A stretch of 64,000 nucleotides of DNA from Acidobacteriota bacterium (GTDB lineage Bacteria > Acidobacteriota > UBA6911 > RPQK01 > G965218465). The translations under genes were made by a program, and so were the position numbers. Of this stretch, positions 7,080-33,969 are shown in pieces. Below the pieces are notes generated by a model. It was not told the DNA's origin, did no database searches, and was given only the letters and a program-made list of their open reading frames with translations. The stretch's first letter is position 1. Each line of letters opens with the position of its first letter. The DNA lies in NCBI GenBank assembly GCA_965218465.1, contig OZ244623.1:2868097-2932096 (forward strand). Direction: 5' to 3'.

Positions 7080-7269
7080 ACCGGGACATAATGTGAGTTA
7101 AAGTGTGCCTTTAGGAACTGGTCTGACTTATAATGAAGTGATGTCAATTGGCATGGTCATCTCCCCGACAAGATCAATGTCGTGAGCGTTGGTGGCCTCA
7201 ATTTCCCTTGTGCTGTCCCCTTGGTGATAATCCTGTCGCTGGGCACGCTTGACAGGAGGCTTCGCAGGT

Positions 7270-20797: not shown

Positions 20798-20801
20798 CGT
20801 C

Positions 20802-21224
20802 TCACCGGCGAGACTGTCCGGCCCGCTTTCTGACCACTTCTTCGATGCGGTCCACACAGGATTCCGCATCCCGCTCCACCTCATGCTCCCAGATGCGGAT
20901 GACTAACCATCCCTCCCGTCGGAGCTTATTGGAGGTTCGCCGATCCCTGTAGCGGTTGCCCTCGATCTTCTTCCTCCAATAGGGGTCGAGTTTGTGCCTC
21001 CACCGGGAGAACTGCCAACCGTGCCAGAAGTCGCCGTCGACGAATACCGCGACTTTCGCACGTACAAAAACGAGATCAGGCCGTCCTGGAAGTCCGTTCT
21101 TGTGTTTACGGAACCGTAGGCCGCGCGCATGCACAAACCTGCGAATCGTCAGTTCGGGAGTCGTGTCCTTGCTTCGGATGCGGGACATCGTGAAGCTGCG
21201 TTGTTCCGGCGTCAGGTTGTCCAC
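20802..21224 (-). CDS. vsr: very-short-patch repair endonuclease (T:G mismatch nicking, 5mC deamination repair)
   Basis: 140 aa with the Vsr signature KDTTPELTIRRFVHARGLRFRKH...LPGRPDLVF...KVAVFVDGDFWHGW. Confidence 0.8.
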   Translation of the reverse strand: MDNLTPEQRSFTMSRIRSKDTTPELTIRRFVHARGLRFRKHKNGLPGRPDLVFVRAKVAVFVDGDFWHGWQFSRWRHKLDPYWRKKIEGNRYRDRRTSNKLRREGWLVIRIWEHEVERDAESCVDRIEEVVRKRAGQSRR

Positions 21225-21248: not shown

Positions 21249-22415
21249 CTAGCCAGCAGCATCGTCCTGCGGAAGTCTCCAAACGGCAGTCCATGCCTTG
21301 TCAACTCGGATCAACGGCGCGTCCCTGTCCGTCTTCATCTGCCGTCCATGGACTACGCGGACAGCGTCCCCGACGTCGGGCAGATCCATGTCGTCCATTC
21401 TCATCCATTTACTTGGAATCTGCTCGATTGAAACGCGTTGTCCAAACACTGTCCCGGCCTGCCTCGATAGGACCAAAGTCGTGAGCGAGACGCCCTGAAC
21501 CTGTCGGCTCTCTATCTCAGCAATGTTCCCCTCCACGTGTGATCCGCAGTCCGTAGCCCATTCGGGTTGCGCTTCAGTCCAGAATGGACCACAGAATGGC
21601 AGACATGGGCAAAACGAGCAATTGCCGGGAGACGGAGAGGCGAGATCTCGGAAGGAAGCTCCCTCGGAGACCGCGGCATTAAATCTACCAAGCTGTTTCT
21701 TCGCACAGTCGGCCTCGGCCTCGGCCTCGGCCGGCGAAATCGCGAATTCACAGCGCTGTCCGTCACCTCGTACAACCGCACCCGTGCTTACGTCTGTTCC
21801 GTTCTCTGCGGCAATATATGCGTACAGTCGAAGTTGGCGCGCCTCAGAATCGGACACAATACCCCCCTCGGCTTCAGACATATGCCCTGTTTTGTAATCT
21901 ACAACTACGCCGGCCCGGCCGTCGATATAGTCGGCCCGGCCGACGACCCGGCCATCCCTCGAACTAAGACGGGATTCCGTCCTCACTGCTGGAGAAGCTA
22001 ATCTCGCCGCTTCAGCGGCAGAACTGGCCGACGGCATTCGAGACAAAGCGATGGGAGTTGCCGTAAGTGCAGCCCGTTCGCGGTTCAGGTGGTAGAAGGG
22101 CAGGCGGTCCGCAGAGGGGAACTTCAACTTGACCAAGCGGTGGGCGCCCAGATGAAGTTTCTGCGCCGTCTTGTCGAACAGCCGCCTTGCCGGAGAGCGG
22201 TCGCTGACGGCTGCCACCGGGAGCTCCCCTCTATGCGCGGCCGCCACAACCACATGGAAAGCCGTTCCTAGGATCGCCGCCGGGTGCTGAGGCAGAACAC
22301 CGACATCCCCAAAAGCGAACCATGCCGCCTTGGCGAGGCAGTGTATGCTGGCTTCATAGATGCTCGGTGTAATGCGCTTGAGCTGAGCTAGAAGCGGCGG
22401 CTCCGGGACGATCAT
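21249..22415 (-). CDS. RecB-family PD-(D/E)xK nuclease with Cas4-like C-terminal Cys cluster
   Basis: Motifs GRADYIDGRAGVVVDYKTG (motif II/III, hhhDYKTG) and QLRLYAY (QxxxY). C-terminal CSFCPCLPFC is a putative Fe-S/Zn cluster as in Cas4/AddB nucleases. Confidence 0.65.
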   Translation of the reverse strand: MIVPEPPLLAQLKRITPSIYEASIHCLAKAAWFAFGDVGVLPQHPAAILGTAFHVVVAAAHRGELPVAAVSDRSPARRLFDKTAQKLHLGAHRLVKLKFPSADRLPFYHLNRERAALTATPIALSRMPSASSAAEAARLASPAVRTESRLSSRDGRVVGRADYIDGRAGVVVDYKTGHMSEAEGGIVSDSEARQLRLYAYIAAENGTDVSTGAVVRGDGQRCEFAISPAEAEAEADCAKKQLGRFNAAVSEGASFRDLASPSPGNCSFCPCLPFCGPFWTEAQPEWATDCGSHVEGNIAEIESRQVQGVSLTTLVLSRQAGTVFGQRVSIEQIPSKWMRMDDMDLPDVGDAVRVVHGRQMKTDRDAPLIRVDKAWTAVWRLPQDDAAG

Positions 22416-22430
22416 GCTGTCATCAACTCC

Positions 22431-25400
22431 TCATTCATAAGGAAACCGAACAGCACGAAATACTGACCGCAGAGTCACGCTAAAGCCCTGCCCTTGCGCG
22501 TCTGAAACGGCGGCGGCCACCTCCGGGCGGAAGTTGGACGAATCCGTGTCCCAAAGCGGGTGGGTCAGGATAATGGCTTCATTGTTGAATGGATCAACTC
22601 CTCCGGACAATGCATCGAAGGTCCTCGTCTTCATTTGGAGGCCCTCGAAATAGGTCGGAGCAATACGGGCGACAAGATCGGACCAGTGGCTTGTGGTGAG
22701 ATCAATACGGGCGTTAGGATCAAGGGCCAGTTGCGCCATGTCGAGCCCCAACCTCCAGTCGAGTATTGGGTGAAAGGCCATGTTTCCGAATTCACGAAGA
22801 CAGCGGTGGCAAGAATTGACACAGTCATGGCTGTGCGGCGGCGTCACGAGCAGTCGATGAAACGAGTCGGGTGGAGTGCTCCGCGTCCAGGAGGGGCGCG
22901 CCTGCCCTAGGACAAACCGGAGGAGTTCTTCGAAGCGGACGGAGTCTCCTAGGAACGTGCTGTATCCAGCTCCGTTTTCCAGGTTGTCGGAGATGAAGAT
23001 GCGGGCGGTCGGTGGCGCGAACGGCGTGGAGAGGTCGGCAATAGGCTGGATTCCGAGGTCGAGTTCAGAATCATTTACGTCGAGGCTGACTGCGGCGGCC
23101 CGCCGGACAAGGAATCCGAAGGAATACCATGCGGCCTTCGCCTCCGGCTTGGATGGATTCAGGCAGAGTCCCACTGAGACAACGTTGATTCCGGCAGCCA
23201 TGACATCCGTATTGGATATGGCGCCAAGAGCACGCCGGACTCCGGGCGTCGCCGAATCGAACGACGGCCGTTGAATCCGTCCCCGCTCGGCGGCAGGAAG
23301 GTCGCGAAGAGCACTATCGAACGCTTCCTCAACCATCCAGAAATTTTGATTCGCTAGCTTTCGGAATTCGAAGTCGCTCCCATCGTTGTCGTTGATGCGG
23401 TAGATTCTGGCGGAGCCGCTGTCGATGCTGAAGTTTCTGTGAGTCCTGTAGTTGTCCAGCCCAGCCCCCATGCGGGCCCTCAAGGCCCTGGGCGTGAATT
23501 GGAAGCCACCCCGAAACTCGGCGCGGTCGGATATCGTCCACCAAGTGCTGAATCCAGGAGGTTCGGTCAATTCCGCTAGTCGATAGCCGTCCGGTCCGTG
23601 CGCGGCCGAACAATATGGGCACCTACCCGACTGCTCAGGCTGGGTAACCAGGGCCTGGCATCGACGGCATACGCCAACAATCTCTGACTCTCCGAGTGGA
23701 TTCGGCGCCAGGGCGACGCCCCCCATATCGGGGACGAATTCAACCACTCCGACGGCCGTGTGAAGCTTGTCGTCTTTGATTGACTGTGCACCAGGCGCAA
23801 ACTGGCTGATGGCGATGTCAAGTTCGCGGTCGATAATCCCGTACTGAGGAGGCCAGCGGATTGGTTGCTTATGATGCAGGAGGCGCGTTCGCGTCGGGAA
23901 GCCAAACATTGGAAGTACACCGTGGGAGGCCAAACGTTCGCTAAGCGCATGATGCGTGTTGCTGCTGCCGGCGATTTCATCGATCCGGTCGAGCAACTCC
24001 GTTTTGACGTACTGGGTGATGCTCGTAACGCCAGCCGTGTTGTCCATTGCAGTTCGACGCAGAATGTGGTGTCCGATGTCCTCGATAAATAGTCCGTTGA
24101 CAGCAATCCAGTCTGAGACGGTCTGTCGATAACCGGACCACTTCCCGACGGTTCCAAACTCTCCATGAACATTCTCGCCTGAGTGCTCGATCTCGATGCC
24201 TTCAAACGAATGCCGAAGTACTTCTTTGTTGACGACTCGCTGCGCGATTTCCGGCCGCGAAACATCCACATACGGGCGAGGTGGCGGCTCAGCTGTAATT
24301 AGATGAGGCCGTTCAAAATAATAGTCATCGTGGCTGCGGCCCCGGCAGAGCGTCAATGCTGCTGACATTCCAAGACCCCTCCGTCCGGCACGTCCGACCC
24401 TCTGCTGGTAGTTGAAACGGATGGGGGGCATGTTCGCCATGCCGATCATCTGCAGCGATCCGATGTCTACGCCCGCCTCCATGGTTGTAGTGACGCTGAG
24501 GAGGTCCACTCCGAAGGCCTTTTCAAGTTCTCGATCAAGGAAGATCTCCTGGAACCATCTCTGTCGGTCGATGCGGTCGTCACGGTCCGTCTGTCCAGTG
24601 AGTTCCTCGCAGTTGAGGCGAAACGGATCGTCGTTGCATCGAGCCAGGTATTCATAGAAGTCCATTTCGCTGGCGTCCGAAGCCGTGGGATGGCGATGCG
24701 GCGCGTTCGGAAGCCGATTCCGGCAGACCGTACAAATACCGCCGGACGCATGCAGGTGGACGGAACCGCATCTTTGGCAAGAGAAGACATCGATGCACAC
24801 GTCCGTTCCAGGGACGGGGGTCAACACGTAAAGGCGTTGCGGGACAACCAGCCATTGATCCACGGCGTCGCTCAACAGAGTTAGGATGTCCTCCAGCAAT
24901 GTAGCTGCGTCGAGCCCATTGAGATCGGCGACGGCCTGAGCGTACCGGCGGATGTCTCGGGGCGCTTGAAGTCTGCCGTCCGACGCCGGAGTCCAACGGA
25001 ATCTCTTTGCTAGCATTCTGACTATGGAAGCCGCCGCGCACTCCTGCACAGTAGCTGGCCCCGAGTCATTGATCCAAAGGAGCCCAAGCCTCAGCGACTC
25101 GAAGTCACGGCTTCCCCCTGCGAAGAGAACGTCGTTTATGACGGAGCGCAACAACTCGGCTTCAATTCGATCCCGCAACTCCTGCTCAACCGGCTGAAGG
25201 TCCAGCCGATATCTGTGCTGCTCCACGTTCCAGTCGAAGATGTCCGTCCAAGGGATCGTCGTTGTCTGCCACTTATACTCCCTTACGCCTGGCAATGGCC
25301 CACCCGGATTTATCCCGATTCGTAGGAGCGACTCTCGCACGAAATCCACAAGGGCGTTGAACGACATGCTGCCGAAGCCGGTAGGCGGCGAGGGGCGTTG

Positions 25401-27962
25401 TAACGATCCCTTAGACCCGGCAAGCTGCATGACACGGCCGACGACTCCGGCCTCAAGTGTCTGGATGAGCTCTTGAAGGCGGCTCATCTCAGCCGCGTCG
25501 AGGGATTGCATATTCTGTTTCCGGACAAGCATTAGGAGTTCACATGACTGTTGGTATGACTCCATGGACCGGGCGTATTCGGATTCGGAGTTTTCAATCT
25601 GCTTCATGAGACGGCGGAACACTGTCTGCCGGACATTGTCCAGATAGTGTGCGTGTTTGATGCCGGTGGACAGCTTTGCAGCGTCTTGGCGGCTGTCCGA
25701 GAAAAGGACGAGCTTTCGCCTCCTGGAATCGGGGATCTCCCGCATCATGCCGTCACTCAAGAGCTGCATGACGCGCTGGAAGCCGGAGCCCAGATCGCGG
25801 ATAGGGGACTCAATTCGCCGCCGCGACCAGTCGTCTCCGCAGTGCGGGCACTTTCTAGGAAAGGCGTTTGCTTCGTCATCGGTGCTGTTGAAGGCGAAGC
25901 CGACCGATTCCTGCGCCCGCGCGTTTCTTGATCTCATTTCATAGGTCAGGCGGCCGGGAATCGATTGAAGGGCGGCGGGATGCCAACGGTGGCTGCCGTC
26001 CAGCCACCTCCATTGCGGGCCGGCATGCGTTGATCGATAAATCGGCCGCCCGTTAGCAGGCCAGAAGACGAGATATTCTCCGAACTTCCTGTTGAGCGAG
26101 GCCGATCGGTCAGGGACCTGATCCAAGTTCGGATAGTCGGGAGACAGAAACCAAGCATTCGGGGAGTTGGGGTCCAACTTCTTGTACCCCCCGAGGAACA
26201 CCTCTCCGCACGGCTGGCAGTATAGCAGTTCGAGAACACGGGACCCGCAAGAATCACAGCGGGGCACCGGGTCGGCAAACAACCGCCCGACCGGAGGAGT
26301 ATCTTGACCGGTTGGCGTTGTCGCCGTGCGGCCTGAGCAACCCGGGTTTACACATGCCCAAATTCTTCCCGCATTATGGAAGAAGTAATGAATGCGAAAC
26401 GGTAGCGGAGCAACCATACTCCCTGGCTCTGCACCCGGTATGCGAGCATGGATCAAGCCACGGACGAGTCCGCGTGTGGCTGCAATATCGGCATTAGAAG
26501 TGTTGCCAAAAACTATAGATGAAAGACGCTCAAGGGTCAGCGGCTCATTCTCACAAGCCGCCCGCAACGGCTCAAGAGCATGAATCTCCTTGTAGCCACG
26601 TGCGAAAACCTCGGCCGGTTTACCGATTGTCTCGGCCCCAACCACAGACGCAAATTCCCTCGCGGCCTGATCAAGTGGAATCGAATCTAAATTATTGTTA
26701 AGAGAGGAGAACACTCTTGCGTACGGCAGCATCCCGGAGCGCGGGGCCGGAAACTTCCGTTGCCGGCCTGAGAGTATCTCGAACGAGCCTCCATCACGGC
26801 CGAAGAACTGCTCCAGGTAAGTACGGCTCTGGTCGTCGTTGCTTATAGACGCGCTGGTCGCAATGATCCTTAGTTGCGGCGAATCCGGATCGAGGCCGAT
26901 TCGATGCAGGAGCGCCCGGAGCAGGTAACCCACCTCAGTTCCTGGCGTACCCCGGTACGTGTGCAGTTCGTCTACAACCAGATGGAACACATGGTTACTG
27001 CGGTCTGCCTCCAACCACGCCTTTGTCAGATCGAAAATGTTGCTTTCGAGCTCCCGCATCAACATGATGTTCAGCATGCTGTAGTTCGTAATCAAGATGT
27101 CCGGTGGATGGCTCTGCATGTCCCACCTCGACCACATCTCTGATCCCTCCGGATTCTGAAAGTAGTGCAGGATGTCGTCCGATCCTCGCGTGGCTGCAGA
27201 CGCCTGTGCGCGTCCCCAATTGCAGTCCATTTCAAGCAGCCGCCTCTTGAGTTCAGCTCGCTTGGGGGGGCTCTCCTCGGTCCCGGAAACAGGGGCGACG
27301 GCGTTGTACCGACCGAACCAGAAATGATGCTTGGCGAATGGTCCTGAGAACCACTGCCTTGCCTCTTCATTGTCGCAGGCTTGTCGGATGCGGCCCAGTT
27401 GGTCCTCGATAAGCGCGTTCAGGGGATACAACATCAGCGCACGCACGGCGCACGGACGGTCCACGGATTCGTGCCCCCGTTGTGGAATGCGGGGTTGATA
27501 TGGATGCCTCCACCACATGTGTCTGGTGGGCACAGAGGATTGTGTCCCCCACCCGCGCATGAGGTCCTCGACCAAATAGGCGAAGATCGGCAGCAGATAG
27601 CATTCGGTCTTACCGGAGCCCGTTCCTGTCGTCACGACAACTGAGCGCCCGGCGCGAGAATGCCGCCATGCGTCAACTTGATGTTCATAGAGGGGAATTT
27701 CAGCCCGGAAAAGCCCGCGAGTGATGAAGTCAGCAGCCTCGGTGGGAACGCCCAGACGTGCGCATGTCTTTTCGACGGTCAGTTCGGAGCTCTCGTACGG
27801 AGGAACCGGCTCGATCAGAGGTTCGCGAAATAGTCGGCGGTCCTGAAATAGAAGGCGGCGCCTTTCCTCCCGAAGAGCGTCGTAGCGCAACCGGAACGGG
27901 CTGTCGAGATACCGCTGGTATGCAAGTTGAATCTCCTCGAACACCTTAAACGGATCGTTCAT
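22431..27962 (-). CDS. giant SF2 DExH helicase with internal Zn-ribbon insertion and C-terminal DUF1998-like (MrfA-type) Zn-binding domain; Druantia DruE-like / DISARM DrmA-like
   Basis: 1843 aa. Walker A VVVTTGTGSGKTE (~aa 105). DExH HLVVDELHTY (~aa 330). Motif III IATSAS. Motif VI QQRVGRAGRRG only at ~aa 1175. Between the RecA lobes lie CxxC pairs (CDSCGSR...CQPCGE; CPHCGDD; CQRCGS...CTVCRN). C-terminal CRRCQAL...CPYCSA and CVNSCHRC form a DUF1998-like tail. Confidence 0.75.
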   Translation of the reverse strand: MNDPFKVFEEIQLAYQRYLDSPFRLRYDALREERRRLLFQDRRLFREPLIEPVPPYESSELTVEKTCARLGVPTEAADFITRGLFRAEIPLYEHQVDAWRHSRAGRSVVVTTGTGSGKTECYLLPIFAYLVEDLMRGWGTQSSVPTRHMWWRHPYQPRIPQRGHESVDRPCAVRALMLYPLNALIEDQLGRIRQACDNEEARQWFSGPFAKHHFWFGRYNAVAPVSGTEESPPKRAELKRRLLEMDCNWGRAQASAATRGSDDILHYFQNPEGSEMWSRWDMQSHPPDILITNYSMLNIMLMRELESNIFDLTKAWLEADRSNHVFHLVVDELHTYRGTPGTEVGYLLRALLHRIGLDPDSPQLRIIATSASISNDDQSRTYLEQFFGRDGGSFEILSGRQRKFPAPRSGMLPYARVFSSLNNNLDSIPLDQAAREFASVVGAETIGKPAEVFARGYKEIHALEPLRAACENEPLTLERLSSIVFGNTSNADIAATRGLVRGLIHARIPGAEPGSMVAPLPFRIHYFFHNAGRIWACVNPGCSGRTATTPTGQDTPPVGRLFADPVPRCDSCGSRVLELLYCQPCGEVFLGGYKKLDPNSPNAWFLSPDYPNLDQVPDRSASLNRKFGEYLVFWPANGRPIYRSTHAGPQWRWLDGSHRWHPAALQSIPGRLTYEMRSRNARAQESVGFAFNSTDDEANAFPRKCPHCGDDWSRRRIESPIRDLGSGFQRVMQLLSDGMMREIPDSRRRKLVLFSDSRQDAAKLSTGIKHAHYLDNVRQTVFRRLMKQIENSESEYARSMESYQQSCELLMLVRKQNMQSLDAAEMSRLQELIQTLEAGVVGRVMQLAGSKGSLQRPSPPTGFGSMSFNALVDFVRESLLRIGINPGGPLPGVREYKWQTTTIPWTDIFDWNVEQHRYRLDLQPVEQELRDRIEAELLRSVINDVLFAGGSRDFESLRLGLLWINDSGPATVQECAAASIVRMLAKRFRWTPASDGRLQAPRDIRRYAQAVADLNGLDAATLLEDILTLLSDAVDQWLVVPQRLYVLTPVPGTDVCIDVFSCQRCGSVHLHASGGICTVCRNRLPNAPHRHPTASDASEMDFYEYLARCNDDPFRLNCEELTGQTDRDDRIDRQRWFQEIFLDRELEKAFGVDLLSVTTTMEAGVDIGSLQMIGMANMPPIRFNYQQRVGRAGRRGLGMSAALTLCRGRSHDDYYFERPHLITAEPPPRPYVDVSRPEIAQRVVNKEVLRHSFEGIEIEHSGENVHGEFGTVGKWSGYRQTVSDWIAVNGLFIEDIGHHILRRTAMDNTAGVTSITQYVKTELLDRIDEIAGSSNTHHALSERLASHGVLPMFGFPTRTRLLHHKQPIRWPPQYGIIDRELDIAISQFAPGAQSIKDDKLHTAVGVVEFVPDMGGVALAPNPLGESEIVGVCRRCQALVTQPEQSGRCPYCSAAHGPDGYRLAELTEPPGFSTWWTISDRAEFRGGFQFTPRALRARMGAGLDNYRTHRNFSIDSGSARIYRINDNDGSDFEFRKLANQNFWMVEEAFDSALRDLPAAERGRIQRPSFDSATPGVRRALGAISNTDVMAAGINVVSVGLCLNPSKPEAKAAWYSFGFLVRRAAAVSLDVNDSELDLGIQPIADLSTPFAPPTARIFISDNLENGAGYSTFLGDSVRFEELLRFVLGQARPSWTRSTPPDSFHRLLVTPPHSHDCVNSCHRCLREFGNMAFHPILDWRLGLDMAQLALDPNARIDLTTSHWSDLVARIAPTYFEGLQMKTRTFDALSGGVDPFNNEAIILTHPLWDTDSSNFRPEVAAAVSDAQGQGFSVTLRSVFRAVRFPYE

Positions 27963-27978
27963 GGGTCTATTTCACTCG

Positions 27979-28875
27979 TTAGGGCAGGACGGTAACTCCA
28001 GGGTGCGGTTGACCGGCGGCGACCATCAGCAGAGCGGCCACTTCGGGGGTTACATCGAAGTAGACAAACCGTCCGTCAATTAATTGCGCAGGACGGCACG
28101 CACAGAGACATGCGGCTCGGGAATATAGTGCTGGCATCGGTGCGAACAACGGCACACTCAACTCCAGGGAATGAGGCTCGTAATCAATCAGACGAACCCC
28201 CTTCAGCATGGCAGCCGCATAGAGGGACTCCCGCTTGGGCATCCTCAACAGCTTCCCGCTTCTTCTGCGAACGTAGTATTGGGGTCGGCCGTAGGTGGGC
28301 GTAAACTCACACGCCGCATTCGGCAAAAGTCCGTCGACCCACGCGCGTATGCCAAGGTCGAAGAACCGGGCCTTCCAGTTTAACGGGGCTGGTTCCTGAG
28401 CCGCGGCCTCGAATACGCATGGAATGGGAGGAACGTTTTCCGCAATTCGTCTCCCGTTATCAGGTTGATAAGCCACTCCAATGTGGCTGGAGATTTCGGC
28501 AATCACCCGCCTTTCACCAACGACACGGAAGGATGTCGGACAGTCCTTGAGGGCTTCCTCTTGGAGCTTGCCTCCATGCACTTTAGCCCCGTTCCTTAGC
28601 GCCTCGACAAGAGCAGGAGTGCGTCTTCCATAAAGGACGGCAGCATCCGCCTGGGCGGCAAGGCCTCCAAGGACGGGCGGCAGCATGTTCCACCGCTGAG
28701 AACCATCTACAAAAAAATCGGTGAAGCCGAGATCCGACAAACCAACTCTCAGTGCGCGGGACAACTCCAGCGGATCACGATCTCCACTTACAATCTCCTC
28801 AGCCGCCTTTCGAAACCTTATCCATGACCCCTCTCCCAAGTGGGTCATCCATGTCAGTAACAGATCGCAGTTCAT
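27979..28875 (-). CDS. hypothetical protein (positionally DruG-like)
   Basis: 298 aa with no recognisable motif. Its start overlaps the upstream gene's stop by ATGA (translational coupling). A 17-bp gap separates it from the helicase gene. Confidence 0.5.
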   Translation of the reverse strand: MNCDLLLTWMTHLGEGSWIRFRKAAEEIVSGDRDPLELSRALRVGLSDLGFTDFFVDGSQRWNMLPPVLGGLAAQADAAVLYGRRTPALVEALRNGAKVHGGKLQEEALKDCPTSFRVVGERRVIAEISSHIGVAYQPDNGRRIAENVPPIPCVFEAAAQEPAPLNWKARFFDLGIRAWVDGLLPNAACEFTPTYGRPQYYVRRRSGKLLRMPKRESLYAAAMLKGVRLIDYEPHSLELSVPLFAPMPALYSRAACLCACRPAQLIDGRFVYFDVTPEVAALLMVAAGQPHPGVTVLP

Positions 28876-31800
28876 TGGGGCTTCTTGAGTTTCCGCTTTA
28901 TGTTCTTCGCCAATGCGGCGTATTTCTTCCAGCCGTCAACGATGCCTTCATCGGGGACAGCCCCGTTCAGTCCAACGAAGCGCGGGCGGCGGATGTGCGC
29001 CTCGTAAACGACGGTGCTCCACTGCTCGATTAGCTTCCGAGTTTGCACCGTTAGCCTGCGAAGGGTGAGCATTCGTGGTGGACTTGGATAGGAAGCAACC
29101 GCGACCACCGCGCCAGGGCCTGCACCCACTCGGATGGCCCAACTGGGATGGAATGGACATGACGCGATAGTTCCCTGGAAAAACTCTTCGTCTGAGTAGC
29201 AGACCTGGTCCGGCGAGTTGCCTATCAAGGTCCATGAGCCATGCGGCAAGGCAATCCTTCTGCTACGGTCAGCATCGAGCGATTCATGAAGTTCAGTCTG
29301 GCTCTGGACAGACAGTTGCGGCCGTTCTATTGCAATTCTCCTTCGCATGCTACCCGCCTCGACGAGATATTCGCCGGGCTCAGAGAAGACCCCTTCCGCC
29401 AGCAACTCACCGCTCGCATCAACTCCCACCGATGCGCCGTTCACCTTTATACGGTCTCGTGCCTCCATGCCGGACACTAGGATTCGCGGCGGGGCTCCCG
29501 TGAGCCATGACCAGCGGCGTCCTAGCCGCAGGCCACCCGCAACGATCAATTTAATTTTTCGATCGACTTCCAACGCCTCAAGAGTAGCGGGCGCTTCGAC
29601 ATGGACGCGTGCCGAAACATCGCGGAACATGGACCAACCGTTCGGCAGCAGTGGGTGTGATACCGGGCTCAGCAAGCCTTGCGCAACTTCGCTCAGGTAG
29701 TCTTTCACTATGGGGACAATGTTGTCGCAGCATAGAACGGAGCACCTGACACCACGCAGCAGGCGTCGGCTCGATAGAAAACCGCTGTAGCTTGATGACG
29801 GTGTGAAAGGAATGGCCAACGCCCCAGAGCGCCTCAGCGTAAAGTCGATGCCTCTTGCATGCGACAACCACTCGAAGCCGCTTTCCAAAAGTTCTCCATC
29901 CTCCGAACGGAGTTGCGCGGGGTCGTACCACCCTTCGTCTGATGCCTCGAACACCCGCTTCCCGTCCCCGAACACTTTAGGAAATCCGGGAGGCCGCCGA
30001 GGCAAGTAGAAGAAAACCGGGCTCCTCTGGACAACATCGAACTGAATCTCGACCAGTGCGCTACGCCTGCTGGGCGACTCGCAAAAGCTTCCGTCCCATG
30101 CTTCCAATTCAGCACTCGCTTGGGCAGAAATGGCGGCGGAGCGGTCGTCATAAAGGGCACTCGTAGCGGTTGGCGTAAGCATGTTCCGTGACTGTTGCCA
30201 CCGCCTCAAATCGGAGAGCAGGCGGTCATGCCGGACCCGGGCTCCAGGCTGGTATCCCGCCCAAGAAAAGAACACCGGGAGCTTCTCGATGTCCAAGGAC
30301 CGAAGCGGAACGTGCGTCAACGGCAACGCAACGAACCGCCTGAACCCCGTGTCGCTTTTCGGCATCGCAAGCTGGCGCCTATGTGCTTTACGAAGCCAAG
30401 TGTGCAGGAACACCCAAAGCGACTCGAACACCGCTGGATTAAATCCGGGAGGGTGTGCTCCGTGCATTTCACACTTGAGGAGGTCCGCCAAGCGCCTGTA
30501 GTAGGCGTTTCCCGACAACTCTTCGTCGGACTGCATGCGAAATGCAGCAAGGACCGAACCTGCGAGGAAGGCCGCGCAGTCAGGGGAGCCGTCGGCACTG
30601 CATCGACGCAGCACACGAAGCCGCGCGCTGTGTTGAAGAACATGCCCCTGATAAAGGTTCGCAACCGCTGTTGTGAACTGCTGCTCTGCCTGCTCAGGCG
30701 TTATTGGACCCAAGCCGGCCTCCTCGAACACTCTCGCCAATATGCGGGGGTTGACGCACAAGAGAGCTTCTTCTGAGGATGGGCCCGCAAGCAGCAATTG
30801 CTCGACAACAGCGGTGTTCCAGCGGGCATACTCATGGTCGACCGCGGAAACGTCCTGGACCGCCACTAGATATTCATGTGCATCCTCTGGAAGTGTTAGC
30901 TGACGTGGAGATGGATCTCTCCAGTCATCGGCGGTCGCCCACACGTCTTCTTCTGTCGGTTTCTGGGGCTCTTCTTCGGCCTGCGGACGATCCATACATC
31001 CCGACTCCGATTTGCCCACACCCACTGAGGTGGTCCTGTGCGCCTCCGGCGACGCATCTCGTCCGCATCGGTTCTCGTTTAGTAGACTTGCTGGGCTTGT
31101 GGACAAAGTACCGGCGGATGCGTCTTCCGCAGTCCGCTCACCAGCGTTTGGAGAGGATATGGTGGTTATTCCCTTGTGTTGGACATCAAGGGGCGGATGA
31201 GGATCGGAGCGAGGAGCCACCTCATCTATTTGAGACGTGTCCTCGTGGACAGATCTGTGGTCCACACCGCTGTCGCCTGCACCTGCGACTTCTGGGCGTG
31301 CCGAATCGTCCCCGTCCTCGTTCCCATTGGTCATTCTGCCTTCTCGGACAGTACACGGCGTGGCCGCTTCATGACCAGTTTCGACGTTTCTCGGCGGTTC
31401 CTCAGCCGACGACTCGTCGACTCCCATTTGTACTGGGTAGCGCGTTGGATCGTGTTCCATTGCCTCATCGACCGAGACGATTTCTTCGCCGAAGCCTCCT
31501 TCAGAGCTAGGTCCAGATTCAGAGCCGGGGTTCGCGTCTCGTATCGGCTGCTTCTCCTGCACCAATGGCTTCGGAGTTTCTGTTGCGACGGTTTCAGAAT
31601 CCGTTTCTCCTTCGGTAACGCTCCCAACCTGAATGGGTTTAACAGACTCTTCAACCTGGGATTCCTCAAGCGTATTAGTCGATCCTGCCTCGATCGGTTG
31701 ATCGCTCAACTGGTCACCGCTCCCGTCATCGGTTGACGCTAGCGCGGATTGGTGGACGCCGGGTTGGTCTTTGTCAGGCGTCAGTGATGCTTCAGAAGCG

Positions 31801-31919
31801 AGTCCGAACCGAGACAACACGGAGAGTAACGCCTTCAATATTTGTGCGGTGATCCGTCCCAAGTCAGAGTTCCAGCAGGAATTCGCCGATTGCCTTCGAC
31901 ACAAGCGGACACACCGCAT
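28872..31919 (-). CDS. large hypothetical protein with ~330-aa acidic low-complexity N-terminal region and ~680-aa C-terminal globular domain (positionally DruF-like)
   Basis: 1015-aa ORF. N-terminal third is D/E/S/T/P-rich (…EESQVEESVKPIQVGSVTEGETDSETVATETPKPLVQEK…). A more likely start is GTG at 31820, because the ORF's first 56 bp overlap the methyltransferase gene. The stop overlaps the next gene's ATG. Confidence 0.5.
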   Translation of the reverse strand: MRCVRLCRRQSANSCWNSDLGRITAQILKALLSVLSRFGLASEASLTPDKDQPGVHQSALASTDDGSGDQLSDQPIEAGSTNTLEESQVEESVKPIQVGSVTEGETDSETVATETPKPLVQEKQPIRDANPGSESGPSSEGGFGEEIVSVDEAMEHDPTRYPVQMGVDESSAEEPPRNVETGHEAATPCTVREGRMTNGNEDGDDSARPEVAGAGDSGVDHRSVHEDTSQIDEVAPRSDPHPPLDVQHKGITTISSPNAGERTAEDASAGTLSTSPASLLNENRCGRDASPEAHRTTSVGVGKSESGCMDRPQAEEEPQKPTEEDVWATADDWRDPSPRQLTLPEDAHEYLVAVQDVSAVDHEYARWNTAVVEQLLLAGPSSEEALLCVNPRILARVFEEAGLGPITPEQAEQQFTTAVANLYQGHVLQHSARLRVLRRCSADGSPDCAAFLAGSVLAAFRMQSDEELSGNAYYRRLADLLKCEMHGAHPPGFNPAVFESLWVFLHTWLRKAHRRQLAMPKSDTGFRRFVALPLTHVPLRSLDIEKLPVFFSWAGYQPGARVRHDRLLSDLRRWQQSRNMLTPTATSALYDDRSAAISAQASAELEAWDGSFCESPSRRSALVEIQFDVVQRSPVFFYLPRRPPGFPKVFGDGKRVFEASDEGWYDPAQLRSEDGELLESGFEWLSHARGIDFTLRRSGALAIPFTPSSSYSGFLSSRRLLRGVRCSVLCCDNIVPIVKDYLSEVAQGLLSPVSHPLLPNGWSMFRDVSARVHVEAPATLEALEVDRKIKLIVAGGLRLGRRWSWLTGAPPRILVSGMEARDRIKVNGASVGVDASGELLAEGVFSEPGEYLVEAGSMRRRIAIERPQLSVQSQTELHESLDADRSRRIALPHGSWTLIGNSPDQVCYSDEEFFQGTIASCPFHPSWAIRVGAGPGAVVAVASYPSPPRMLTLRRLTVQTRKLIEQWSTVVYEAHIRRPRFVGLNGAVPDEGIVDGWKKYAALAKNIKRKLKKPQ

Positions 31920-33969
31920 TGGCCAGTTGCTGCTGCTTGTGCATCAAACCGCCGGATTGACCGTCCACGGTGCCCGCAAACCGAAACCAGTCGGGGAACG
32001 ATTGAAGCCGGCTTGCCTCACGCAGCGATAGCCCACGATTCTGCTCCGGATGAATGAGCATGCTTTTCCGATAGTGGCCGATCGTAATAGACGGCTCGTC
32101 CCATTCCAACCGTCGATAGATGTTGCTGTGGGTCCGCTTCACCTGCGAGTAGTTCGACATCATTTCCACTATGTCCTGCCAATTCCCCCCGGCAGGGATT
32201 CGTTTGTAGCGTTCGATAACATAATCGGTATGGCGTGACGTGATGTGGTCTAGAATATTTGTCTTGGGTGCGCTGTTACGCATCAGCGTTAGAAATTTAT
32301 TGCCCTCCCCTGTCGCAGGTTCACAATAGTCAATTTCATCCAAACCATGACCGTTGCCGATTGGTGGCAAATCGCCAATCGCCCCGCGGACCGTTACGAA
32401 CGAACGTCCTGCAAGGGGACCGTGGGTGGGGGTCGGAAAAGGGCCCCAGTCACCAAAGTCGTCCACGGAATAGCCAGCGTCCCTATGGATTCCCAGAACA
32501 AAAAAGCGCGTTCGGAATTGGGGCACACCGTACCAGACTGCATCCAACAGCTTTGGAAAAGTCATGTACCCAGCCAATTTCATCCGCTCAACAATGTGTT
32601 CCGCAACACTGGGCTGGATTTCTGACTTGCCGTTCCTTGCAGTCCATGCAATTCCCTGCACATTCTCAATCAAAAACACCGAAGGATTCAATTTCTCGAC
32701 ATATCTCATGAAAACGGTGACCATTTGATTCTGCGGATTAGTGCTCGACCACGAATTGCGGTTTGCACTAGAGAACCCTTGGCAGGGTGGACCTCCAACA
32801 AGAATGTCGACACCCCCCGCCTCAATCGCCTTGGATGCGACCAGTTCTAGTATCTTTCGGTCGTTAAGGTCGAACGGTTCAATGGACTCTGGAACGAAAT
32901 CACGCCACTTTGATTTTTGCATTCCAACTAGGCAGCTATGAGTATTTCTGAGGGTTTGAATGTAGATCGGATGAAGTTCCCCTGCGAAAACAAGCCGAAA
33001 CCGCCTCTTGGGATGTTTAGACATTAAGAATCCGAGTCCCATTCCCCCAGCGCCAGCAAAAAGCTCTACGACGTTGAGCACATTCGCTCCGGCGAACTTC
33101 GCACCACGGGGCCTACTTTCCGAACAGACAGTGTTCGAATCGCCTTCCGAAGATTTGTCCTGAAGCCTTGCGAGAGTAATGTTTGATCGATATCGCAACA
33201 TTAGGCCGGGCCCGTTATTCAGGGCTTCTCCTTCGTGCGACAGGCTTGGAGGCTTGCGCAAATTTCTTTCTTGTCGTCGGACGAGGGGCCTAATCCATCG
33301 GACCCAACCAATGTATCGGACAAGATCTTCAAGTGGAGTAGCGCGCAGCGAAGTCAGTCCGATAATCGTTCCTGGATGCAGTCCTACAATGCCGCCTGTC
33401 TGAGCCACAAACAGGCGTGCCGTTGTGTCGTCCGGCAAACATACTTTCGCTAGATCAGCTACCGAAAATCGCATGGAAGATGTTCCGTTGCCCGGAGCAA
33501 CCTCCACATCCCGCCACACCGCACCCCCTAACGTATCTGCCGCTCTTTGTTTGACCCACTTTCCGCGTTGTGCACACTCAACTTCGTGACTTGGTCGGAT
33601 TTCAAGGATAAAGTCTAGTCTCTTTTCAACCAGAGACTTGATGAACGAAAAACTGCTACCATAGGAGGCCCCTGCAACAATAACCGGGTCCCCTCCTAGT
33701 CTATTGCACCTGCTGAGCAATCCGAGTGCTACCGTTTGCTTGTATTCCTTTGTTCCCGTCTCCGCCTGCCGTCGCGCCACCTGTGCCTTACCGTAGACTT
33801 TCTTCCATTTGCCTTCGACGATCTTGTGCACACGAACTGTGACCGACGGATCGCCTTGGCCGCGCTGTAGTCCCAGAATTGGGCGTCGGTTTGATCTCGC
33901 ACTGTCGTCTTCTACCAGCAAGATGATGCCCAAGTTGGTTTGCGTCAAAAGGGGCCTTACATTCGACAT
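31864..33969 (-). CDS. DNA (cytosine-5)-methyltransferase with ~290-aa N-terminal extra domain (DruM-like / Dcm-like)
   Basis: C-terminal ~410 aa carry motif I LFAGAGGMGLGF, motif IV ILVGGPPCQGFSSANR, motif VI FLIENVQG, and motif IX/X region (ASRLQSFPDWFRF, QLANAVCP). The N-terminal domain (…GGDPVIVAGASYGSSFSFIKSLVEKRLDFILEIRPSHEV…) is unassigned. Confidence 0.8.
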   Translation of the reverse strand: MSNVRPLLTQTNLGIILLVEDDSARSNRRPILGLQRGQGDPSVTVRVHKIVEGKWKKVYGKAQVARRQAETGTKEYKQTVALGLLSRCNRLGGDPVIVAGASYGSSFSFIKSLVEKRLDFILEIRPSHEVECAQRGKWVKQRAADTLGGAVWRDVEVAPGNGTSSMRFSVADLAKVCLPDDTTARLFVAQTGGIVGLHPGTIIGLTSLRATPLEDLVRYIGWVRWIRPLVRRQERNLRKPPSLSHEGEALNNGPGLMLRYRSNITLARLQDKSSEGDSNTVCSESRPRGAKFAGANVLNVVELFAGAGGMGLGFLMSKHPKRRFRLVFAGELHPIYIQTLRNTHSCLVGMQKSKWRDFVPESIEPFDLNDRKILELVASKAIEAGGVDILVGGPPCQGFSSANRNSWSSTNPQNQMVTVFMRYVEKLNPSVFLIENVQGIAWTARNGKSEIQPSVAEHIVERMKLAGYMTFPKLLDAVWYGVPQFRTRFFVLGIHRDAGYSVDDFGDWGPFPTPTHGPLAGRSFVTVRGAIGDLPPIGNGHGLDEIDYCEPATGEGNKFLTLMRNSAPKTNILDHITSRHTDYVIERYKRIPAGGNWQDIVEMMSNYSQVKRTHSNIYRRLEWDEPSITIGHYRKSMLIHPEQNRGLSLREASRLQSFPDWFRFAGTVDGQSGGLMHKQQQLANAVCPLVSKAIGEFLLEL

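What the first reader, a model, noticed from the sequence alone, without database searches (positions are those of the whole stretch)
22431..27962. 1843-aa helicase with RecA lobes separated by a ~650-aa Zn-ribbon-rich insertion and a DUF1998-like Cys4 C-terminus
Walker A (GTGSGKT) and DELH lie within the first ~330 aa, with motif III (ATSAS) at ~370. Motif VI (QQRVGRAGRRG) appears only at ~1175. In between are at least three CxxC…CxxC pairs (CDSCGSR/CQPCGE, CPHCGDD, CQRCGS/CTVCRN). The C-terminus has CRRCQAL…CPYCSA and CVNSCHRC, as in MrfA/DrmA/DruE DUF1998 domains. I have not seen a split-helicase-with-Zn-ribbons architecture characterised for this family.
Basis: seen in the sequence. Interest (0 to 1): 0.6.

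Follow-up and report, generated by a model that had tools for sequence, protein, structure and literature searches.

The report
Druantia DruE defence helicase, known architecture
The 1843-residue protein is DruE, the signature helicase of the Druantia anti-phage system, and its motor interrupted by zinc-binding domains is real but was already described for this family in 2025-2026, so the finding is ordinary.

Summary
The ORF at 22431-27962 is real. It lies on the minus strand and encodes 1843 aa.

It is not an uncharacterised architecture. It matches PADLOC's DruE4 profile end to end (E = 0). A profile of it aligns colinearly with a solved 1970-aa helicase (PDB 9wae, E 5e-236). It also matches E. 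coli type III DruE (9tu7) and MrfA.

Bell et al. 2025 described the same layout for this helicase lineage. Three 2026 cryo-EM preprints on type III DruE show one ATPase core with extra domains, two of them embedded in RecA2. So this is a single interrupted helicase, not a tandem fusion, and that was already known.

- RecA2 probably starts near aa 745, so there are two inserted blocks rather than one 650-aa gap.
- The C-terminal zinc cluster reads His-Cys3, not Cys4.

The gene sits in a conserved operon: C5 methyltransferase, DruF, DruL, DruE, PD-(D/E)XK nuclease DruK, Vsr. This type IV Druantia is untested in the literature I searched. Interest is low.

The parts
22431..27962 (-). druE: 1843-aa Druantia signature helicase (PADLOC subtype DruE4)
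   Evidence: ORF listing and translation. PADLOC DruE4 profile PDLC00051: E = 0, 1779 bits, aa 1-1841 against profile positions 3-1816 of 1829. A profile of the family matches solved chain 9wae_A colinearly, 3-1757 against 18-1852, E 4.9e-236.
27708..27962 (-). N-terminal region, aa 1-85, with the conserved RYLDSPFRLRY element (approximate boundary)
   Evidence: Invariant residues R17-Y27. Bell et al. describe an N-terminal strand that joins the RecA2 sheet in all YprA homologues. That role is inferred here, not shown.
26763..27707 (-). RecA1, aa ~86-400: Walker A 113-119, DELH 331-334, motif III ATSAS 368-372, and a clade-specific insertion at ~aa 196-272
   Evidence: Motif positions. Pfam DEAD hit at aa 93-198, E 3.5e-14. 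Aligns with the RecA1 motifs of 9tu7 and MrfA. Bell et al. report a RecA1 insertion, partly coiled-coil, for type II DruE. The AF2 model has a long helix at aa 232-259.
26418..26762 (-). Helical domain after RecA1, aa ~401-515 (called BrxA-like, WH or five-helix domain in the literature)
   Evidence: All-helical in the AF2 model, aa 412-505, pLDDT 80-92. It is the least conserved block, with 0.43 mean identity. Its position matches the BrxA-like domain of Bell et al..
25797..26417 (-). Double zinc-binding beta domain, aa ~516-722: C537/C542, C569/C572/C582/C585, C705/C708
   Evidence: All eight Cys are invariant. The region is beta-rich in the AF2 model, aa 534-693. Aa 517-608 align with E. 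coli DruE 421-509, next to the dZBD 'lock' loop (residues 505-523) of that structure. Which Cys pairs share a zinc ion is inferred.
25638..25796 (-). Probable first beta-alpha unit of RecA2, aa ~723-775, with KLVLFSDSRQDAAKLSTGIK (motif-IV-like)
   Evidence: Conservation of 0.82 equals that of the RecA2 C-terminal part. AF2 predicts a strand at aa 751-755 followed by a helix. The element is shared with 9wae 831-862 and 9tu7 640-663. Loeff et al. place the INS and Stalk domains inside RecA2, and D654/R657 of P. aeruginosa DruE contact the ssDNA. The assignment is by homology; the direct sequence test was inconclusive.
24798..25637 (-). Second inserted block, aa ~776-1055: a ~60-residue helix (aa 758-818) plus helical and mixed domains (called Stalk/Cap, DBD+DD or MarR-like in the literature)
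   Evidence: AF2 helix at model positions 679-739 (aa 758-818) and well-predicted domains, pLDDT 80-93. No Pfam helicase or P-loop hit in aa 400-1100. The long helix protruding from RecA2 matches the 'Stalk' of Loeff et al..
24708..24797 (-). Zinc ribbon at the return to RecA2, aa 1056-1085: C1062/C1065/C1077/C1080
   Evidence: All four Cys are invariant. The ribbon aligns with 9wae 1118-1145. Weak Pfam DZR_2 hit, E 0.009, below the curated cutoff. Bell et al. note zinc modules at the C-terminal end of the MarR-like domain.
24183..24665 (-). RecA2 C-terminal part, aa ~1100-1260: ELTGQTD, motif V TTTMEAGVDIG, motif VI QQRVGRAGRRG (1187-1197)
   Evidence: Pfam Helicase_C hit at aa 1103-1196, E 4e-7. 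Aligns with 9tu7 1092-1197, MrfA 336-418 and many DEAD-box RecA2 domains. AF2 confidence is low here.
23133..24182 (-). Helical (winged-helix-like) domain and OB-CON module, aa ~1261-1610, with an inserted zinc module C1432/C1435/C1448/C1451
22758..23132 (-). MZB (DUF1998) domain, aa ~1611-1735, with cluster H1710-x3-C1714-x3-C1718-x2-C1721
   Evidence: Pfam MZB hit at aa 1618-1722, E 0.0012-0.0064, 17.6-19.9 bits, below the 24.2-bit cutoff. H1710, C1714 and C1718 are invariant and C1721 is 98% conserved. Cys mutations in the MZB of E. coli DruE abolish defence.
22434..22757 (-). Small C-terminal alpha/beta domain, aa ~1736-1843. It has no PLD domains and is possibly a degenerate Vsr/restriction-endonuclease-like fold.
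31864..33969 (-). First gene of the operon: 701-aa C5 cytosine DNA methyltransferase (DruM-like) with an N-terminal IS701/DDE_5-like extension
   Evidence: Pfam DNA_methylase at aa 299-696, E 8e-44. PADLOC DruM2, E 1.4e-58. NCBIfam IS701 transposase at aa 53-231, E 1.5e-8, below cutoff. The same fusion occurs in L003 and L004.
28872..31919 (-). druF-like gene, 1015 aa. The DruF homology starts at ~aa 353. The N-terminal ~340 aa are acidic and low-complexity.
   Evidence: PADLOC DruF2 and DruF4 profiles, E 1.7e-36 to 2e-11. Translation. No Pfam hit.
27979..28875 (-). druL, 298 aa
   Evidence: PADLOC DruL4, E 1.6e-20. It also matches the C-terminal third of DruF2 profiles, positions 768-1005 of 1011.
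21249..22415 (-). druK: 388-aa Cas4/RecB-like PD-(D/E)XK nuclease with a C-terminal Cys cluster
   Evidence: PADLOC DruK, E 2e-22. Pfam PDDEXK_1, E 5e-14. The sequence shows D-x(n)-DYK, QxxxY and CSFCPCLPFC motifs. The gene is conserved downstream of druE in 5 of 6 related loci.
20802..21224 (-). vsr: 140-aa very-short-patch repair endonuclease
   Evidence: NCBIfam vsr, E 6e-35, above cutoff. Pfam Vsr, E 2.6e-28. Conserved after druK in L001 and L003-L006.

Best explanation
This gene encodes DruE, the signature helicase of a Druantia anti-phage system of the clade PADLOC calls type IV.

Anatomy. It is a single YprA/MrfA-type superfamily-2 DNA helicase with one ATPase site, formed between RecA1 (aa ~86-400) and RecA2. 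The motor is interrupted by accessory domains:
- a helical domain and a double zinc-binding beta domain (aa ~401-722);
- after the first strand-helix unit of RecA2 (aa ~745-775), a long-helix 'stalk' with a cap or duplex-binding domain, ending in a zinc ribbon (aa ~776-1085);
- RecA2 then resumes (aa ~1100-1260).
An OB-CON-MZB 'lid' follows, with two further zinc sites, and then a small non-PLD C-terminal domain.

Mechanism, inferred by analogy with type III DruE. The protein loads on exposed single-stranded DNA at a junction and translocates 3'-to-5' using ATP. The zinc-binding and duplex-binding inserts would form the platform that holds the duplex and splits the strands. The OB/MZB lid would clamp the tracking strand.

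Inferred from this locus. This DruE lacks the PLD nuclease domains of type III. DNA cleavage is therefore most likely supplied in trans by the adjacent Cas4-like nuclease DruK. The co-operonic C5 methyltransferase would mark self DNA, and Vsr would repair 5mC deamination mismatches. DruF and DruL have unknown roles.

Shown here: family membership, motifs, conservation, colinearity with solved DruE-like structures, and operon conservation. Inferred: helicase polarity, the roles of the inserts, the nuclease partner and methylation-based self-recognition.
For: - Full-length match to the DruE4 profile (E = 0), with weaker matches to DruE2, DruE1 and DruE3.
- More than 7,300 homologues. The top 120 are all ~1830-1860 aa with 87-100% coverage.
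- A profile of 45 homologues aligns in a single stretch with solved chain 9wae_A (3-1757 against 18-1852, E 4.9e-236). It also matches E. coli DruE 9tu7 (E 2e-59) and MrfA (E 3e-18).
- Ten of the 12 family members sampled have exactly one Walker A and one DExH. P0060 and P0099 have a second DExH match, and P0070 has a second match of each.
- There is no helicase or P-loop Pfam hit in aa 400-1100.
- Cryo-EM of type III DruE shows a single RecA1/RecA2 core with INS and Stalk embedded in RecA2. It also shows five zinc motifs, 3'-to-5' unwinding, and dZBD/DBD duplex-platform and OBZ/MZB clamp elements. Motifs I, II and RAGR and the MZB Cys are required for defence.
- Bell et al. predicted the same domain order for all Druantia types.
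- The operon methyltransferase-DruF-DruL-DruE-DruK-Vsr is conserved in Sorangium and in Gemmatimonadetes and Steroidobacteraceae MAGs.
- In the window the genes are tightly spaced or overlapping on one strand.
Against: - I found no experiment on any type IV Druantia system or on DruF, DruL or DruK. Only the PADLOC paper mentions DruF in the held library.
- My AF2 models were only moderate (pLDDT ~70). Both RecA lobes were poorly predicted, so the single-core packing is not shown by my own model.
- Assigning aa 745-775 to RecA2 rests on homology to solved DruEs. A spliced RecA2 profile did not bridge the junction on canonical helicases.
- The Pfam MZB hit is below the curated cutoff.
- PADLOC defined type IV as lacking DruM, yet a DruM-like methyltransferase is present here. 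The subtype definition therefore does not fit cleanly.
- The two type III structure papers disagree on whether the PLD domains matter, so the nuclease step in Druantia is unsettled.
Confidence: 0.9

Rival explanations
1. Tandem-helicase fusion. Motif VI at aa 1187 would belong to a second, independent helicase core whose own motifs I and II are degenerate and hidden in aa 400-1100.
For: - About 850 residues lie between DELH and motif VI.
- AF2 did not confidently pack RecA1 against RecA2.
Against: - Ten of 12 sampled homologues have only one Walker A and one DExH. The other three have a second match to one or both patterns.
- There is no P-loop, DEAD or Helicase_C Pfam hit in aa 400-1100, even at E <= 1.
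- In the AF2 model the region is helical bundles, a beta-rich Cys domain and a 60-residue helix, not alpha/beta RecA folds.
- The protein is colinear with 9wae and 9tu7. Cryo-EM papers on E. coli and P. aeruginosa DruE describe one RecA1/RecA2 ATPase site with domains embedded in RecA2.
- My hhalign test of the insert against RecA1 and RecA2 was negative, but so was its positive control, so it carries no weight.
Confidence: 0.02
2. A housekeeping MrfA/YprA-type DNA-repair helicase (mitomycin-repair type) rather than a defence protein.
For: - Sequence and fold similarity to MrfA.
- One source names a homologue 'ATP-dependent helicase YprA (DUF1998 family)'.
Against: - MrfA is 751 aa and lacks the inserted domains.
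- Similarity is confined to core motifs (E 6e-14, against E = 0 for DruE4).
- No MrfB-like exonuclease partner was seen among the neighbouring genes.
- The operon partners are DruF, DruL, DruK and a DruM-like methyltransferase, and the arrangement is conserved across phyla.
- Bell et al. place Druantia helicases in the defence branch of the YprA tree.
Confidence: 0.03
3. A helicase of a related but different YprA-centred defence system (DISARM DrmA, Dpd DpdJ, or ARMADA/BRIGADE/TALON) rather than Druantia.
For: - Partial PADLOC hits to DpdJ (E 4e-14), DrmA (E 1e-8), SngC and BrxH.
- ARMADA helicases share the same inserted domains.
Against: - Those hits cover only short motif regions (50-190 aa), whereas the DruE4 and DruE2 profiles match over the full length.
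- No SNF2/BrxHII helicase, PglX methyltransferase, DrmB/DrmC or dpd queuosine-pathway genes were seen in the operon.
- PADLOC-DB 2.0 predates ARMADA, so ARMADA profiles were not tested directly.
Confidence: 0.04

Closest known systems
Druantia type IV DruE (PADLOC profile DruE4, PDLC00051; Payne et al. 2021, PMC8565338)
   Same: - End-to-end profile match: E = 0, 1779 bits, aa 1-1841.
- DruF- and DruL-like genes lie immediately upstream.
- Protein length of ~1840 aa is shared by hundreds of homologues.
   Different: - PADLOC defined type IV as lacking DruM and DruG.
- Here, and in all six related loci examined, a C5 methyltransferase (DruM2-like, E 1.4e-58) precedes DruF.
- A PD-(D/E)XK nuclease (DruK) and Vsr usually follow DruE.
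Solved 1970-aa 'Helicase', PDB 9wae (with 9waf, 9wds, 9wdu, 9wdv, 9wdw, 9wdy)
   Same: - Colinear over aa 3-1757 (E 4.9e-236 with the family profile).
- Shares the RecA1 insertion, the Cys pairs, FSDSRQDAA, the zinc ribbon before RecA2 and motifs V-VI.
   Different: - About 130 aa longer.
- With the single sequence, the aa ~806-1055 block aligns poorly.
- I could not find the paper or the organism, so its Druantia type is unknown to me.
- It is absent from the fold-search library, which stops at 2026-04-08.
Type III-A DruE of E. coli (PDB 9tu7 series; bioRxiv 10.64898/2026.05.13.724758 and 10.64898/2026.05.12.722862) and of P. aeruginosa (10.64898/2026.05.13.724313)
   Same: - Same order: N-terminal region, RecA1, helical domain, double zinc domain, RecA2 with embedded stalk/cap, winged helix, OB with zinc, MZB.
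- Motif II to motif VI spacing is ~885 aa there and ~856 aa here.
- Both have five zinc motifs.
   Different: - Low sequence identity; only motif islands align (E 3e-43).
- Type III has two C-terminal PLD-like domains (~380 aa) and works with DruH. This protein has a ~108-aa non-PLD C-terminus and no DruH.
- Zinc motifs are distributed 2 + 2 (OBZ) + 1 in type III. Here they read 2 + 1 (ribbon before RecA2) + 1 (OB) + 1 (MZB), from sequence.
- The MZB cluster is C-x-C-x3-C-x2-C in E. coli and H-x3-C-x3-C-x2-C here.
Druantia type II DruE ('Type IV CoCoNuT' of Bell et al. 2025, PMC12458937)
   Same: - Full-length matches to the DruE2 profiles (1531 and 1462 bits).
- Predicted BrxA-like, zinc beta-barrel and MarR-like domains, a C-terminal inactive Vsr-like domain and RecA1 insertions.
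- C5 methyltransferase and DruF partners.
   Different: - No DruG gene.
- DruF appears split: DruL matches the C-terminal third of DruF2 profiles.
MrfA/YprA (PDB 6znp, 6znq, 6zns) and DISARM DrmA-DrmB (7s9v, 7s9w)
   Same: - Core fold: RecA1/RecA2 plus an OB-CON-MZB canopy.
- Best structural matches to my models.
   Different: - MrfA is 751 aa without the inserted domains.
- DISARM splits the canopy into a separate protein.
- Both are only distantly similar in sequence.

Membership tests
Druantia DruE | Full-length similarity to DruE profiles (a ~1800-2100-aa helicase) | tested here: met
   DruE4: E = 0, aa 1-1841 against profile positions 3-1816 of 1829. DruE2: E = 0, full length. DruE1 and DruE3 match partially.
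Druantia DruE | SF2 helicase motifs I, II, III and VI intact | tested here: met
   GTGSGKT 113, DELH 331, ATSAS 368 and QQRVGRAGRRG 1187 are all invariant in 45 homologues.
Druantia DruE | MZB/DUF1998 zinc module after an OB-CON canopy | tested here: met
- The conserved cluster H1710/C1714/C1718/C1721 is present.
- The Pfam MZB hit is only 17.6-19.9 bits against a 24.2-bit cutoff, so the call rests on fold and profile context rather than on Pfam.
Druantia DruE | Accessory domains (helical, double-zinc, stalk/cap) between RecA1 and the end of RecA2, with a single ATPase core | tested here: met
   - Colinear alignment with solved 9wae over aa 3-1757.
- Islands aligned with 9tu7.
- AF2 secondary structure of the inserts.
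- No second helicase signature.
- The single-core packing itself is taken from the published cryo-EM work, not from my model.
Druantia DruE | Encoded next to other dru genes | tested here: met
   DruF, DruL, DruK and DruM-like hits in adjacent co-directional genes. The arrangement is conserved in six related loci.
Druantia DruE | Confers phage resistance | not testable with these tools
   I found no experimental data for type IV.
Druantia type IV (PADLOC definition) | DruE + DruF + DruL present | tested here: met
   DruE4 E = 0. DruF2 and DruF4 profiles, E 1.7e-36 to 1.4e-22. DruL4 E 1.6e-20.
Druantia type IV (PADLOC definition) | Lacks DruM and DruG | tested here: not met
   - No DruG hit among the operon genes.
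- A C5 methyltransferase matching DruM2 (E 1.4e-58) is the first gene of the operon.
- A C5 methyltransferase precedes DruF in all related loci where that gene is intact; in L006 it is cut by the contig end and carries no Pfam call.
- The published definition therefore does not describe this clade accurately.
Druantia type II | DruM + DruF + DruG + DruE | tested here: not met
   No DruG-like gene. The operon has no room for one, because the genes abut or overlap.
Druantia type III | DruH partner and PLD-like C-terminal domains on DruE | tested here: not met
   No DruH hit. The C-terminus after MZB is only ~108 aa with no PLD hit.
MrfA/YprA repair helicase | Compact ~750-aa helicase, alone or with the MrfB exonuclease | tested here: not met
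   The protein is 1843 aa with ~1000 aa of extra domains. No MrfB-like neighbour was seen.
DISARM DrmA / Dpd DpdJ | Full-length profile match and cognate partners (DrmB/C, dpd genes) | tested here: not met
   Only 50-190-aa partial hits (E 1e-8 to 4e-14). NCBIfam DpdJ scores 47 bits against an 800-bit cutoff.

The most novel reading that the evidence does not exclude
The clade represented here may be a distinct, methylation-linked Druantia variant that has not been tested experimentally. Its module is a DDE_5-fused C5 methyltransferase, DruF, DruL, a nuclease-less DruE, the Cas4-like DruK and Vsr.

In this reading DruE is only the ssDNA-junction-sensing motor. DruK supplies cleavage in trans, and cytosine methylation supplies self-recognition.

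The clade-specific features would be adaptations to that division of labour:
- the His-Cys3 MZB cluster;
- the zinc ribbon at the re-entry to RecA2;
- the RecA1 insertion.
Probability: 0.3. Interest if true: 0.4.

Novelty: already known. Interest (0 to 1): 0.15.

Why it matters
It is also functionally important in relatives: in E. coli DruE a loop of the double zinc domain acts as a 'lock', the duplex-binding insert positions the fork, and MZB cysteines are essential for defence. However, it was predicted in 2025 and visualised by cryo-EM in 2026, so it opens no new question.

What remains open is at the system level. I found no experimental work on type IV Druantia. Its DruE lacks the PLD domains of type III. 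Its conserved partners (C5 methyltransferase, DruF, DruL, Cas4-like DruK, Vsr) suggest a different split between sensing, self-marking and cleavage. That would interest people working on Druantia, but it is an incremental extension of a known system.

Tried and rejected
- Plus-strand reading of the coordinates: full of stops. The gene is on the minus strand.
- AF2 of aa 80-1279 and aa 1000-1843 with a 45-sequence alignment. The inserts and the C-terminal half were predicted well. Both RecA lobes were poor (pLDDT 30-55), so I could not show RecA1-RecA2 packing myself.
- Foldseek against the PDB returned MrfA but not the DruE structures. That library stops at 2026-04-08.
- hhalign of the inserted blocks against RecA1 and RecA2 profiles, to look for a cryptic second core. 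The result was negative, but the RecA1-vs-RecA2 control was negative too, so the test is uninformative.
- A spliced profile (aa 738-776 + 1108-1262) against the PDB, to prove that the FSDSRQ element is RecA2 motif IV. Canonical helicases aligned only over motifs V-VI, so the result is inconclusive.
- A literature search for DruK, DruL and 'Druantia type IV' was swamped by unrelated word-start matches.
- A search for the PDB codes located the paper for 9tu7 but none for 9wae.
- tRNA scan of the window for integration sites: no tRNA genes found.
- Rejected readings: tandem helicase, MrfA repair helicase, DISARM/Dpd helicase (see the rival explanations).
Full report
**Observation.**
The coordinates 22431-27962 hold an uninterrupted 1843-codon ORF, but on the minus strand. 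The plus-strand frame is full of stops.

- Walker A GTGSGKT at aa 113-119.
- DELH at aa 331-334.
- ATSAS at aa 368-372.
- QQRVGRAGRRG at aa 1187-1197, slightly later than the ~1175 stated.

The cysteine motifs are C537/C542, C569/C572 + C582/C585, C705/C708, C1062/C1065 + C1077/C1080, C1432/C1435 + C1448/C1451 and C1714/C1718/C1721.

Eight CxxC motifs are present where composition predicts 0.53. None of 5000 shuffles reached eight. Eighteen of these cysteines are invariant and C1721 is 98% conserved in 45 homologues of 55-88% identity.

One correction applies. The C-terminal cluster reads H1710-x3-C1714-x3-C1718-x2-C1721, which is three Cys plus an invariant His, not four Cys.

**What it is.**
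- PADLOC's DruE4 profile matches from residue 1 to 1841 (E = 0, 1779 bits). DruE2 profiles also match full length, while DruE1 and DruE3 match partially. DrmA, DpdJ, BrxH and Cas3 hits are short motif islands.
- Pfam sees only DEAD (aa 93-198), Helicase_C (aa 1103-1196) and a sub-threshold MZB.
- The family is very large. More than 7,300 proteins have E <= 1e-10, and the best 120 are all ~1830-1860 aa with 87-100% coverage. One is an identical sequence from a metagenome, and a 76%-identical one is labelled Rhodopirellula.
- Against the PDB, the single sequence hits a 1970-aa 'Helicase' (9wae and six sister entries, E 8e-161), E. coli DruE (9tu7, E 3e-43) and MrfA (E 6e-14).
- A profile of the 45 homologues aligns with 9wae in one colinear stretch (aa 3-1757 against 18-1852, E 4.9e-236).

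**Is the architecture uncharacterised?**
No.

Bell et al. [quoted passage not shown]
- a BrxA-like helical domain immediately after RecA1;
- a beta-barrel with at least two CxxC zinc motifs inserted at the start of RecA2;
- a MarR-like domain, also inserted in RecA2, that usually carries a further zinc module at its C-terminal end;
- zinc-bearing inserts in the OB fold;
- the DUF1998 cluster;
- for types I and II, RecA1 insertions and an inactivated Vsr-like C-terminal domain.

Three 2026 preprints give cryo-EM structures of type III DruE:
- One reports an MrfA-like core (RecA1, RecA2, OB, CON, zinc module, winged helix). Family-specific domains surround it and account for ~60% of the mass, including a large module with two zinc sites.
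- Another dissects eleven domains with five zinc-binding motifs and shows 3'-to-5' unwinding. It defines a dZBD 'lock', a duplex-binding platform and an OBZ/MZB clamp. It also shows that motifs I, II and RAGR and the MZB cysteines are needed for defence.

In E. coli DruE, motif II is at residue 251 and RAGR at 1135. That spacing is essentially the same as here (331 and 1191).

**Anatomy in this protein.**
I combined conservation, AF2 secondary structure and alignments to solved relatives. Boundaries are approximate.

| Region (aa) | Assignment |
|---|---|
| 1-85 | N-terminal region |
| 86-400 | RecA1, with a clade-specific insertion at ~196-272 |
| 401-515 | Helical domain |
| 516-722 | Beta-rich double-zinc domain |
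| 723-775 | Highly conserved strand-helix unit, KLVLFSDSRQDAAKLSTGIK |
| 776-1055 | Helical and mixed domains, following a ~60-residue helix (aa 758-818) |
| 1056-1085 | Zinc ribbon |
| 1100-1260 | Rest of RecA2 (ELTGQTD, TTTMEAGVDIG, QQRVGRAGRRG) |
| 1261-1610 | Helical domain and OB-CON, with a zinc module at 1432-1451 |
| 1611-1735 | MZB |
| 1736-1843 | Small alpha/beta domain |

The FSDSRQDAA element aligns with 9wae 831-862 and with E. coli DruE 640-663. In P. aeruginosa DruE, residues D654 and R657 contact the tracking strand. I therefore read it as RecA2's first unit (motif-IV-like).

This assignment is by homology. My direct test, a spliced RecA2 profile against the PDB, did not extend across the junction on canonical helicases.

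**The tandem-helicase alternative.**
- Ten of the 12 sampled family members have exactly one Walker A and one DExH. P0060 and P0099 have a second DExH match, and P0070 has a second match of each.
- Aa 400-1100 give no helicase or P-loop Pfam hit, even at E <= 1.
- The region is predicted as helical bundles and a Cys-rich beta domain.
- The colinear solved relatives have one core.

**Context.**
The gene is the fourth of a tightly packed minus-strand operon:
- a 701-aa C5 methyltransferase (DruM2-like, E 1.4e-58), whose N-terminal ~290 aa weakly resemble an IS701/DDE_5 transposase;
- a 1015-aa DruF-like protein, with DruF homology from aa ~353 after an acidic low-complexity N-terminus;
- DruL (298 aa), which also matches the C-terminal third of DruF2 profiles;
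- DruE;
- DruK, a 388-aa Cas4/RecB-like PD-(D/E)XK nuclease with intact D...DYK and QxxxY motifs and a C-terminal Cys cluster;
- Vsr (140 aa);
- an HNH_2 protein (314 aa).

The methyltransferase-F-L-E-K-Vsr order recurs in a close relative (L001), in Sorangium atrum (L003), and in a Gemmatimonadetes MAG (L004) and a Steroidobacteraceae MAG (L005). L006 shows the same order, but its first gene is cut by the contig end and carries no Pfam call. One locus (L002) has only methyltransferase-F-L-E.

PADLOC defined type IV as DruE + DruF + DruL lacking DruM and DruG. The methyltransferase found here shows that definition is incomplete for this clade. Loeff et al. count type IV as 18% of 566 Druantia loci. 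I found no experimental work on type IV, DruF, DruL or DruK.

**Mechanism.**
*Shown here:* membership, motifs, conservation, colinearity with solved relatives and operon conservation.

*Inferred from type III work:*
- ATP-driven 3'-to-5' translocation on ssDNA at duplex junctions.
- The double-zinc and cap inserts hold the duplex and split the strands.
- The OB/MZB lid clamps the tracking strand.
- The zinc sites are mainly structural, with some touching DNA.

*Inferred from this locus:*
- This DruE has no PLD domains, so DruK is the likely nuclease.
- C5 methylation probably marks self DNA.
- Vsr repairs the T:G mismatches that 5mC deamination creates.

**Verdict.**
The protein is a recognised DruE, its exact sequence is already in public data, and its architecture is published. 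Novelty: already known. Interest: low (0.15). The only modestly open point is the biology of the type IV operon.

Noticed in passing
window 31864-33969 (-), aa 1-290 of the methyltransferase: The C5 methyltransferase has a ~290-aa N-terminal extension with weak similarity to IS701/DDE_5 transposases (NCBIfam E 1.5e-8, Pfam DDE_5 E 0.004; both below cutoff). The same DDE_5 + DNA_methylase combination is flagged in Sorangium (L003) and in a Gemmatimonadetes MAG (L004). L002 has a short 387-aa methyltransferase without the extension.
   Followed up: partly
window 27979-28875 (-) and 28872-31919 (-): DruL matches the C-terminal third of DruF2 profiles (positions 768-1005 of 1011). The DruF-like protein matches their N-terminal part. 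DruF + DruL therefore look like a split form of type II DruF. The genes overlap by 4 nt.
   Followed up: partly
window 30900-31919 (-), aa 1-340 of the DruF-like ORF: The N-terminal ~340 aa are acidic, Ser/Glu/Pro-rich and low-complexity. The ORF overlaps the methyltransferase gene by 56 nt. Homologues range from 655 to 1015 aa, so this extension is variable, or the true start lies further downstream.
   Followed up: no
window 21249-22415 (-): DruK has a Cas4/AddB-like signature: D...DYK, QxxxY, and a C-terminal CSFCPCLPFC cluster suggesting an iron-sulfur site. It follows druE after a 15-nt gap. It is the obvious candidate nuclease for a DruE that lacks PLD domains.
   Followed up: partly
window 19940-20884 (-) and 20802-21224 (-): A Vsr gene and an HNH_2 endonuclease gene follow druK. 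The longest HNH ORF overlaps vsr by 83 nt. The HNH part resembles phosphorothioate-dependent restriction enzymes (E 1e-11, below cutoff), and its N-terminal ~150 aa are unassigned. The HNH gene is present only in the window, in L001 and as a fragment in L003.
   Followed up: no
PADLOC type IV definition compared with the window and loci L001-L006: PADLOC describes type IV Druantia as lacking DruM. A C5 methyltransferase nevertheless directly precedes DruF in the window and in every related locus where that gene is intact; in L006 it is cut by the contig end.
   Followed up: yes
window 7249-9024 (+): A 591-aa protein with a GmrSD_N domain (type IV, modification-dependent restriction; E 4e-30) lies ~11 kb from the Druantia operon. 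This suggests a loose defence neighbourhood.
   Followed up: no
window 58969-60162 (+): A 397-aa protein matches Cas_GSU0053 (E 4.5e-32). I did not look for a CRISPR array or other cas genes.
   Followed up: no
window 44522-51258 (+): Two large adjacent genes look like an AddB/AddA-type helicase-nuclease pair. One has a PD-(D/E)XK/Cas4-like C-terminus, and the other combines UvrD helicase with PD-(D/E)XK. They are probably housekeeping recombination genes.
   Followed up: no
homologues P0001-P0120: The precomputed annotation lists a Pfam family PF27116 (YjiV_N) on these proteins. That family is absent from the Pfam copy I could search, so Pfam now seems to model part of this protein family.
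   Followed up: no
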